NCBI RefSeq assembly: GCF_003334405.1 | Contig: NZ_QOWM01000004.1 | Source: Escherichia coli | Lineage (GTDB): Bacteria > Pseudomonadota > Gammaproteobacteria > Enterobacterales > Enterobacteriaceae | Length of the DNA: 64,000 nt | Reading direction: 5' to 3' (one strand) | Shown: piece by piece, positions 26,647 through 26,685 of the stretch | Layout of the letters: the number at the start of each line of letters is the position of its first letter | Position numbering within the stretch: position 1 is the stretch's first letter | Translations under genes and position numbers: made by a program | Notes under the pieces: generated by a model | The model's database searches: none | Told to the model about the DNA's origin: nothing | What the model saw: only the letters and a program-made list of their open reading frames with translations

Positions 26647-26655
26647 CAATGCATT

Positions 26656-26676
26656 CCGGCCTGCAGTGCAGGCCGG
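26656..26676. other. Perfect palindrome between convergent murJ and flgN (ccggcctgca-tgcaggccgg)
   Basis: 10-bp perfect inverted repeat in the 39-bp gap between stop codons; no adjacent T-tract on either strand. Confidence 0.6.
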
Positions 26677-26685
26677 AGATAATCT

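What the first reader, a model, noticed from the sequence alone, without database searches (positions are those of the whole stretch)
26647..26685. Perfect 10-bp palindrome without U-tract between murJ and flgN
ccggcctgca/tgcaggccgg fills the 39-bp convergent gap. Without flanking T-runs it is unlikely to be an efficient intrinsic terminator, so it may act as an RNase-protective 3' hairpin or a protein-binding site.
Basis: seen in the sequence. Interest (0 to 1): 0.25.

Follow-up and report, generated by a model that had tools for sequence, protein, structure and literature searches.

The report
Shared 3' hairpin of murJ and flgN
The short palindrome between the E. coli genes murJ and flgN encodes an ordinary RNA hairpin that marks the published end of the flgN messenger RNA and probably protects it, and it looks like a stripped-down pair of REP repeats.

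Summary
murJ (+) and flgN (-) converge on a 39-bp gap. The gap holds an inverted repeat at 26655-26677, TCCGGCCTGCA-G-TGCAGGCCGGA. On either strand it folds into a 10-bp stem with a 3-nt loop (-20.8 kcal/mol), 8 nt from each stop codon, with no U-tract.

Published 3'-end mapping (TRS, PMC10687069) puts the primary flgN mRNA end at K-12 1129375, which is window 26647, 8 nt past the stem. Published bicyclomycin data (PMC7815308) show a Rho-dependent termination region on the murJ strand about 370 nt further on, inside antisense flgN. So the hairpin does not stop murJ transcription by itself.

The stem never varies in the sampled Escherichia haplotypes, while 12 of 19 flank and loop positions do. 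Other genera carry unrelated hairpins at the same site. Salmonella and Citrobacter carry a full head-to-head REP pair there, and the E. coli arms match its two "heads".

Verdict: this is a member of the known class of U-tract-less 3' stem-loops that define and protect transcript ends. It is probably a REP-pair vestige. Nothing supports a protein-binding role. Interest is low.

The parts
26655..26677 (.). Inverted repeat TCCGGCCTGCA-G-TGCAGGCCGGA. On either strand it is an RNA hairpin with a 10-bp stem (26655-26664 pairs with 26668-26677) and a 3-nt loop (26665-26667).
   Evidence: The stem is invariant in all Escherichia haplotypes sampled. It is single-copy in each of 5426 E. coli genomes.
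26647..26654 (-). The 8-nt single-stranded tail (AUGCAUUG) of the flgN mRNA. The published dominant 3' terminus is at 26647 (K-12 1129375; peak 1129367-1129382).
   Evidence: TRS paper PMC10687069, Supplementary Data 2, 3 and 4. I checked the coordinate convention against the thrL row of the same table.
26678..26685 (+). The 8-nt spacer between the hairpin and the flgN stop codon. This is where a trimmed or terminated murJ 3' end is predicted to lie; none has been observed.
   Evidence: Sequence. No plus-strand terminus at K-12 11294xx in the supplements I could read. This part is inference.
25111..26646 (+). murJ (lipid II flippase) coding sequence. Its stop codon TAA is at 26644-26646, 8 nt before the stem.
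26686..27102 (-). flgN (flagellar chaperone) coding sequence, the last gene of the flgMN / flgAMN transcripts. Its stop codon is at 26686-26688, 8 nt from the stem.
27019..27019 (+). Reported position of a Rho termination region on the murJ strand (K-12 1129747, antisense to flgN). The resolution is coarse because the score uses 800-nt windows.
   Evidence: Adams et al. 2021, PMC7815308, Supplementary file 2. Reads upstream/downstream are 72/16 without BCM and 142/156 with BCM; Rho score 4.94, p = 5.9e-9.
26412..26412 (-). An additional minus-strand 3' terminus (K-12 1129140, peak 1129126-1129147) 243 nt past the hairpin, antisense to murJ. It shows that some flgN-strand RNA passes the hairpin. 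The RNA between the hairpin and this point is C-rich and G-poor.
   Evidence: TRS Supplementary Data 2. C/G ratio is 1.4-1.8 over the first 250 nt, against a window median of 1.0 and a 90th percentile of 1.45.

Best explanation
The palindrome encodes a GC-rich RNA stem-loop that is transcribed from both strands and sits at the 3' end of both convergent messages. It defines the steady-state 3' end of the flgN (flgMN / flgAMN) mRNA; this is shown, with the end 8 nt past the stem. It most likely does the same for murJ; this is inferred.

It lacks a U-tract, so it is not an autonomous terminator. On the murJ strand RNA polymerase reads through it and is stopped by Rho inside antisense flgN; this is shown at coarse resolution. 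I infer, by analogy with the class, that 3'-to-5' exonucleases (PNPase, RNase II) then trim the transcripts back to the stem-loop, which blocks them and stabilises the mRNA.

On the flgN strand the end could arise the same way, or by weak hairpin-dependent termination.

On origin, the two arms are the conserved 'heads' (GYAG + GCCGGA) of two Y-type REP elements facing each other. The REP bodies that are still present at the orthologous site in Salmonella and Citrobacter are missing here. The element therefore looks like a minimal vestige of a REP pair (BIME) that kept only the part able to form a hairpin.
For: Structure: a 10-bp stem with a 3-nt loop, -20.8 kcal/mol on both strands, z about -5.

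Mapped end: the flgN primary 3' terminus is at K-12 1129375 = window 26647, 8 nt after the stem. It is listed with this very fold (-21.3 kcal/mol) and 'Max U-tract 2' in PMC10687069.

Read-through: a Rho termination region lies on the plus strand at 1129747. The downstream/upstream read ratio rises from 0.22 to 1.10 with bicyclomycin (PMC7815308). A second minus-strand end lies 243 nt past the hairpin, with C-rich, G-poor RNA in between.

The class is established: Rho-dependent transcripts end just 3' of stable stem-loops that lack U-tracts, and these loops protect against PNPase and RNase II (PMC6061677).

Selection: 0 of 20 stem positions vary, against 12 of 19 loop and flank positions, across Escherichia haplotypes (Fisher p = 1.3e-5).

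Structure rather than sequence is conserved: all 44 short-gap murJ/flgN loci from other Enterobacterales have a stable hairpin in the gap, of several unrelated sequence families. Some are canonical A-tract/hairpin/T-tract terminators, and one family shows compensatory changes.

REP link: TCCGGCCTGCA occurs exactly in Citrobacter werkmanii and C. gillenii, and GCAGGCCGGA exactly in C. amalonaticus, at the head-to-head junction of REP pairs in the orthologous gap. Those elements match bona fide REPs elsewhere in the window at 27-30 of about 36 columns. The E. coli sequence matches only over the first 10 nt. The motif G[TC]AGGCCGGA occurs in the 64-kb window only in the two arms and in one true REP.
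Against: No murJ 3' end at the hairpin is listed in any supplement I could read. murJ is poorly expressed, so this may be a matter of detection.

Adams et al. list no curated Term-seq end in 1129xxx-1130xxx at all, and no minus-strand Rho region near flgN. Trimming after Rho termination is therefore unproven for flgN. An end 8 nt past a stem is equally what direct hairpin-dependent termination would give.

Plus-strand reads antisense to flgN might come partly from promoters other than the murJ promoter.

The exonuclease-barrier role is inferred from the class and has not been measured here.

The REP-vestige origin rests on 10-11-nt identities and a MAFFT alignment of palindromic sequence. It needs two separate deletions, and I found no intermediate form.
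Confidence: 0.7

Rival explanations
1. It is a non-canonical bidirectional terminator. The hairpin pauses RNA polymerases arriving from either side. Termination then happens at the hairpin itself, either as weak intrinsic termination on the AU-rich tail or through head-on and trailing polymerase collisions between the convergent murJ and flgN transcription units. This is the Ju et al. 2019 / Wang et al. model.
For: The element lies between convergent genes and encodes a hairpin on both strands. The flgN end is sharp and lies 8 nt past the stem, the distance expected for hairpin-dependent release. No minus-strand Rho region was flagged near flgN. The class is described as hairpin elements that 'do not resemble intrinsic terminators' and serve as pause and collision sites (bioRxiv 10.1101/2022.10.23.513370). 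Related genera have true bidirectional intrinsic terminators at this site.
Against: That class is described as Rho-independent, yet the murJ strand shows strong bicyclomycin-sensitive read-through past the hairpin. A second minus-strand end 243 nt downstream shows that the flgN side leaks too. murJ is weakly expressed, so collisions would be rare. I could not consult the SEnd-seq list of bidirectional terminators.
Confidence: 0.25
2. It acts at the DNA level. The palindrome would be a binding or cleavage site for a protein (gyrase or IHF as at BIMEs, the REP-associated transposase RAYT, or an unknown regulator), or a cruciform that absorbs supercoiling between convergent genes.
For: The arms equal REP heads, and from general knowledge REPs and BIMEs are known to bind gyrase, IHF, Pol I and RAYT. 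The stem sequence is invariant within Escherichia with no compensatory change, which on its own cannot separate a DNA constraint from an RNA one.
Against: Across genera the sequence is replaced by unrelated hairpins, so structure rather than sequence is conserved. Strain 2022H048 breaks the 11th pair of the DNA palindrome while keeping the 10-bp stem. The REP body that RAYT and gyrase recognise is absent. No promoter lies nearby that such a site could regulate. A mapped RNA 3' end already explains the element.
Confidence: 0.04
3. It is a translation-termination modulator. A stable hairpin only 8 nt after both stop codons would impede terminating ribosomes and lower MurJ and/or FlgN output through stalling and tmRNA tagging, as reported for REPs close to stop codons. 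I recall this from Liang, Rudd and Deutscher 2015 and did not retrieve the paper. This could act in addition to the 3'-end role.
For: The spacing is a symmetric 8 nt from both stop codons and is invariant across Escherichia. In many other genera the hairpin also starts 6-10 nt after the murJ stop.
Against: The distance to the flgN stop varies from -3 to 63 nt across genera. With an 8-nt spacer the stem starts about where the mRNA enters the ribosome, so little or no unwinding is needed; this is my inference from general knowledge of ribosome footprints. There are no data on tagging of MurJ or FlgN. My search for the source paper failed.
Confidence: 0.06
4. It is a chance or neutral palindrome, a decaying REP remnant with no function.
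For: It may be a vestige of mobile REP DNA. It is short and single-copy.
Against: Stem positions are invariant in every Escherichia haplotype sampled (E. coli lineages, E. albertii and a cryptic clade), while 12 of 19 neighbouring positions vary (p = 1.3e-5). A transcript end maps to it. Every related genus keeps some hairpin at this site.
Confidence: 0.03

Closest known systems
3' terminal protective stem-loops of Rho-dependent transcripts (Dar & Sorek 2018, NAR, PMC6061677)
   Same: It is a stable GC-rich stem-loop that is not followed by a U-rich tract. A precise steady-state 3' end lies immediately downstream (shown for flgN). There is bicyclomycin-sensitive read-through beyond it (shown for the murJ strand). 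C-over-G enriched RNA lies downstream.
   Different: One hairpin serves two convergent genes. Dependence on PNPase or RNase II has not been tested here. Rho dependence was flagged only for the murJ strand. No murJ end at the hairpin has yet been catalogued.
REP elements and BIMEs (repetitive extragenic palindromes; mRNA stabilisers, Newbury et al. 1987, cited)
   Same: It is extragenic and lies between convergent genes. The arms are identical to the REP 'head' plus the first 6 nt of the REP stem. The orthologous gap in Salmonella and Citrobacter holds a full head-to-head REP pair. The proposed function, a barrier to 3' exonucleases, is the classical REP function.
   Different: Each arm is only 11 nt, against about 35 nt for a REP, and the REP's own palindromic body is missing. 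The hairpin forms between the two heads, not within a REP. The 23-nt palindrome is single-copy in every E. coli genome.
Canonical (bidirectional) intrinsic terminator
   Same: It has a GC-rich hairpin, the transcript ends 8 nt after the stem, and it sits in the gap between convergent genes. Pantoea, Siccibacter and others have a true A-tract/hairpin/T-tract terminator at the same site.
   Different: It has no U-tract on either strand, and transcription reads through it on the murJ strand unless Rho acts.
Overlapping bidirectional terminators and the RNAP-collision model (Ju et al. 2019; bioRxiv 10.1101/2022.10.23.513370)
   Same: It lies between a convergent gene pair, it is a hairpin element unlike a classical terminator, and it gives a sharp 3' end.
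   Different: That class is reported to be Rho-independent, whereas the murJ strand here is Rho-dependent. Only one of the two expected overlapping ends has been documented.

Membership tests
Canonical intrinsic terminator | GC-rich stem-loop | tested here: met
   A 10-bp stem with 8 G-C pairs, -20.8 kcal/mol.
Canonical intrinsic terminator | U-tract of about 7-8 nt immediately 3' of the stem | tested here: not met
   The tails are GAUAAUCU (+) and AUGCAUUG (-). The terminator scan does not call it. T-tail weights are 0.54 and 0.84. The TRS table gives 'Max U-tract 2'.
Canonical intrinsic terminator | Termination independent of Rho | tested here: not met
   On the murJ strand there is a Rho termination region downstream, with Rho score 4.94. 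On the flgN strand no Rho region was flagged, so that side is inconclusive.
Protective 3' stem-loop of Rho-dependent transcripts | Stable stem-loop without a U-rich tail | tested here: met
Protective 3' stem-loop of Rho-dependent transcripts | Steady-state RNA 3' end immediately downstream of the stem-loop | tested here: met
   For flgN the dominant end is 8 nt past the stem (PMC10687069). For murJ no such end is listed in the data I could read.
Protective 3' stem-loop of Rho-dependent transcripts | Bicyclomycin-sensitive read-through beyond the stem-loop, with a C>G rut-like region downstream | tested here: inconclusive
   Met for the murJ strand. Not flagged for the flgN strand, although the C/G ratio there is 1.4-1.8 and a further end lies 243 nt downstream.
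Protective 3' stem-loop of Rho-dependent transcripts | Longer 3' extensions in pnp / rnb mutants | not testable with these tools
   This needs RNA-seq or Term-seq of exonuclease mutants at this locus. The Dar & Sorek supplements are not held.
REP / BIME | An imperfect palindrome of about 35 nt with a GTAG-type head followed by its own stem | tested here: not met
   Only the head plus 6 nt is present in each arm. Beyond 10 nt there is no similarity to the window's true REPs.
REP / BIME | Many copies per genome | tested here: not met
   The 23-nt palindrome is single-copy in all 5426 E. coli genomes. The two places reported per genome are the two strands of the same site. The 10-nt head motif does recur, in a true REP.
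REP / BIME | Extragenic position, typically at 3' ends or between convergent genes, and homology with REPs at the orthologous site | tested here: met
   The Salmonella and Citrobacter gaps hold head-to-head REP pairs whose junction aligns with the E. coli arms.
Overlapping bidirectional terminator (collision model) | Overlapping 3' ends of both convergent transcripts flanking a hairpin, independent of Rho | tested here: inconclusive
   The flgN end fits. No murJ end was found. The murJ strand is Rho-dependent. The SEnd-seq source paper is not held.
Known structured RNA families (Rfam) | Match to a covariance model | tested here: not met
   There is no relevant hit at E <= 10 in 26000-27500.

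The most novel reading that the evidence does not exclude
The element is an evolved minimal REP pair. A head-to-head BIME was pared down and made symmetrical, for example by hairpin-templated repair, until only the two 11-nt heads remained. Selection kept this remnant because it is the smallest unit that still caps both convergent mRNAs. It sits exactly 8 nt from both stop codons, at the ribosome's mRNA entrance, so that translation termination and hairpin folding are coupled and the amounts of MurJ and FlgN are tuned. Citrobacter sp. R56 and Awk4 show a parallel 14-bp perfect palindrome at the same junction.
Probability: 0.12. Interest if true: 0.35.

Novelty: already known. Interest (0 to 1): 0.12.

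Why it matters
It matters little beyond annotation. It gives the flgN (flgMN / flgAMN) mRNA a defined 40-nt 3' UTR. It also explains how two convergent genes, one essential for the cell wall and one flagellar, are kept apart with only 39 bp between them: a shared hairpin plus Rho. The comparative series at one locus runs from a canonical bidirectional terminator, through a one-sided terminator and a bare hairpin, to a REP pair and a REP-head palindrome. It illustrates the suggestion of Dar & Sorek that terminators switch easily between Rho-independent and Rho-dependent modes, and it shows that REP DNA can be reduced to a functional core.

Tried and rejected
- Rfam scan of 26000-27500 at E <= 10 gave only a spurious miRNA hit elsewhere.
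- The consensus terminator and promoter scan found nothing at the site.
- Supplements of four 3'-end papers gave nothing: PMC9023263 and PMC6061677 hold no files, and PMC12207403 and PMC6131387 have no entries for this locus.
- Ju et al. 2019 (SEnd-seq, PMC6814526) is not held.
- Literature searches for a described flgMN terminator and for the paper on REPs near stop codons found nothing specific.
- NC_000913.3 as served shows no repeat or regulatory feature here. It also shows none at genuine REPs in the window, so the absence tells us nothing.
- I looked for other genomic copies of the palindrome and found none.
- I considered an sRNA derived from the 3' UTR and rejected it: the UTR is only 40 nt and has no U-tail for Hfq.
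- I considered RNase III and rejected it: a 10-bp stem is too short (general knowledge).
- The 72-aa ATG ORF at 26649-26867, antisense to flgN, is treated as a mechanical ORF only.
- I ran no further search on finding E. fergusonii, S. bongori or C. koseri loci, because the answer would change only the origin story and not the verdict.

Full report
**Observation**

The window is E. coli K-12. A 351-bp probe around the site is 100% identical to K-12-type genomes and occurs once in each of 5426 complete E. coli genomes. Alignment to NC_000913.3 gives the conversion: window position + 1102728 = K-12 coordinate. murJ (+) ends with TAA at 26644-26646. flgN (-) has its stop codon at 26686-26688. The gap 26647-26685 is 39 bp.

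The inverted repeat is real, but it has 11-nt arms: TCCGGCCTGCA at 26655-26665 and TGCAGGCCGGA at 26667-26677. As RNA, either strand forms a 10-bp stem with a 3-nt loop at -20.8 kcal/mol, with z-scores of -5.1 and -5.3. The stem base is 8 nt from each stop codon.

There is no T-run on either side. The consensus terminator scan does not call the site. A T-tail weighting written from memory of the d'Aubenton-Carafa scheme gives 0.54 and 0.84, against about 7 for a pure T-run. About 0.15 perfect inverted repeats of this size are expected per 64 kb of composition-matched sequence, so finding one in a given 39-bp gap has a chance of about 1e-4.

**Experimental evidence in the literature**

The TRS study (Nat Commun 2023, PMC10687069) lists a minus-strand 3' terminus for E. 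coli K-12 grown in LB. The peak is 1129367-1129382 and the dominant position is 1129375. It is annotated "flgN, Primary". The fold printed beside it is this hairpin (-21.3 kcal/mol), and the entry reads "Max U-tract 2" (column legend). I checked the coordinate convention against the thrL attenuator row of the same sheet. Position 1129375 is window 26647, so the flgN mRNA ends ...GCAGGCCGGA-AUGCAUUG, 8 nt past the stem, and its 3' UTR is the whole gap.

The same peak recurs in their re-analysis of older datasets. Two further minus-strand ends appear there: 1129140, which is 243 nt past the hairpin and antisense to murJ, and 1129598, which is inside flgN.

Adams et al. (eLife 2021, PMC7815308) list a Rho termination region on the plus strand at 1129747, antisense to flgN. 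[quoted passage not shown] The Rho score is 4.94 and p = 5.9e-9. So when Rho is inhibited, plus-strand transcription crosses the hairpin and continues over flgN, flgM and flgA at full level. The hairpin is therefore not an effective terminator for murJ.

Neither study lists a plus-strand end at the hairpin. The curated Term-seq list of Adams et al. has no end at all in 1129xxx-1130xxx. murJ is weakly expressed, so this silence is not informative.

**Constraint within Escherichia**

Within E. coli, 2261 genomes are identical to K-12 over 63 nt around the site and the rest differ at 1-6 positions. I sampled seven E. coli variant haplotypes, a cryptic-clade genome and E. albertii. Across these, 12 of the 19 loop and flank positions in the gap vary, and none of the 20 stem positions does. 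Fisher's test gives p = 1.3e-5. One strain, 2022H048, changes A26665 to C. That breaks the 11th pair of the DNA palindrome but leaves the 10-bp RNA stem intact.

**Comparison across Enterobacterales**

I fetched 80 loci with the MurJ C-terminus. In 44 of them flgN converges on murJ across a short gap, and every one of these has a stable hairpin in the gap (-12 to -33 kcal/mol). The sequences fall into unrelated families:

- Pantoea, Siccibacter and a soil MAG have textbook A-tract/hairpin/T-tract bidirectional terminators.
- Enterobacter and its relatives have AAAA-GGGGAG...CTCCCC, which gives a U-tract only on the flgN strand. Compensatory changes occur across these genera.
- Kluyvera and Pseudescherichia have bare hairpins.

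What is conserved at this site is a hairpin, not a sequence. This favours an RNA-structure role and argues against a sequence-specific protein site.

**Origin**

In Salmonella and most Citrobacter the gap is 77-88 bp and holds two REP elements placed head to head. These match genuine Y- and Z-type REPs found elsewhere in the window at 27-30 of about 36 aligned columns.

The E. coli arms align to the junction of that pair. TCCGGCCTGCA is present exactly in C. werkmanii and C. gillenii, and GCAGGCCGGA is present exactly in C. amalonaticus. Beyond those 10-11 nt the E. coli flanks show no similarity to REPs. The motif G[TC]AGGCCGGA occurs in the 64-kb window only in the two arms and in the true REP at 31922. 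The full palindrome is single-copy in every E. coli genome.

I therefore read the element as two REP heads without their bodies, most simply a reduced BIME. It fails the membership tests for a REP proper on both length and copy number. This origin is an inference, at roughly 0.6 confidence. It needs two deletions, and I found no intermediate form.

**Mechanism**

The element fits the class defined by Dar & Sorek (NAR 2018, PMC6061677). In that class, transcripts terminated diffusely by Rho have sharp steady-state ends just 3' of stable stem-loops that lack U-tracts. The loops protect against PNPase and RNase II, and rut-like C-rich RNA lies downstream.

For murJ, the Rho dependence is shown and the capped end is inferred. 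For flgN, the end at the hairpin is shown and the way it is made is open. A further end 243 nt downstream, together with C/G ratios of 1.4-1.8 in the intervening RNA, suggests read-through followed by trimming. However, no minus-strand Rho region was flagged, and an end 8 nt after a stem is also what weak hairpin-dependent termination would give.

The collision model for convergent genes is a live rival for the flgN side. In that model a hairpin pauses polymerases, and head-on and trailing collisions then release them. It does not fit the Rho-dependent murJ side well.

**Verdict**

The element is an ordinary member of a known class in the best-studied bacterium, and its transcript end is already tabulated in the literature. 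The only mildly new point is its apparent descent from a REP pair. Interest is low.

Noticed in passing
window 31922-31956: A canonical Y-type REP (GTAGGCCGGATAAGGCGTTTACGCCGCATCCGGCA) sits between flgF and flgG, inside the flgB-L operon. It could give differential stability to the upstream and downstream parts of that transcript.
   Followed up: no
window 10688-10785; 12897-12923; 15137-15159; 43204-43274; 63059-63085: Further REP/BIME-type palindromes lie after opgH, mdtG/lpxL, trhO and rluC and near the window end. None of them is shown as a feature in the NC_000913.3 annotation served here, so 'not annotated' carries no weight for REPs.
   Followed up: partly
window 25734 (K-12 1128462), + strand: Adams et al. 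list a second Rho termination region inside the murJ coding sequence: 217/42 reads without BCM against 152/119 with it, Rho score 4.04. This hints at premature Rho-dependent attenuation within the essential flippase gene.
   Followed up: no
L021, L025, L027, L028, L040 (Enterobacter spp., Cedecea), about 1990-2560 in each locus: In these species an extra gene of about 190 codons is inserted between murJ and flgN on the murJ strand. Its N-terminus looks like a cold-shock domain (MNGTITTWFEEKGFGFIKDENG...).
   Followed up: no
L006 and L009 (Citrobacter sp. R56, Awk 4), murJ-flgN gap: A 14-bp perfect palindrome, CCTGTCAGACCTGC / GCAGGTCTGACAGG, is centred on the REP head-to-head junction. This is a parallel case of a junction made symmetrical, like the E. 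coli palindrome.
   Followed up: partly
L048 (Mixta theicola), murJ-flgN gap, 143 bp: The gap holds three tandem copies of a hairpin unit of about 44 nt (AACCCGCCGGAAGCTAAACCGGTGGGTTAATCGCGGTGAAATTC).
   Followed up: no
window 26633-26638 with 26655-26660: GCCGGA in the last murJ codons (Arg-Arg-Thr) can pair with TCCGGC of the left arm (6 bp, 16-nt loop). With the CTGCA head this gives a REP-like outline that overlaps the coding sequence. It is probably coincidence, since the MurJ C-terminus is conserved, but it would compete with the main hairpin on the murJ transcript.
   Followed up: no
window 26647-26686 (flgN 3' UTR): TRS Supplementary Data 4 gives 2.8-4.1 read starts per nt in the 40-nt flgN 3' UTR, against 1.3-1.6 in the coding sequence. 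The authors did not flag it as an outlier. It could reflect a stable 3' decay fragment ending at the hairpin.
   Followed up: no
window 49135-49156; 56597-56618; 44951-44976; 4266-4291: These are other perfect inverted repeats of at least 10 nt in the window. The one at 49135 follows acpP, is followed by a T-rich tail, and looks like the acpP terminator. The one at 44951 lies inside plsX.
   Followed up: no
/ one search hit statistics: Five of the 5426 murJ-flgN hits lie on records labelled as plasmids. These are probably mislabelled chromosomal replicons or assembly artefacts.
   Followed up: no
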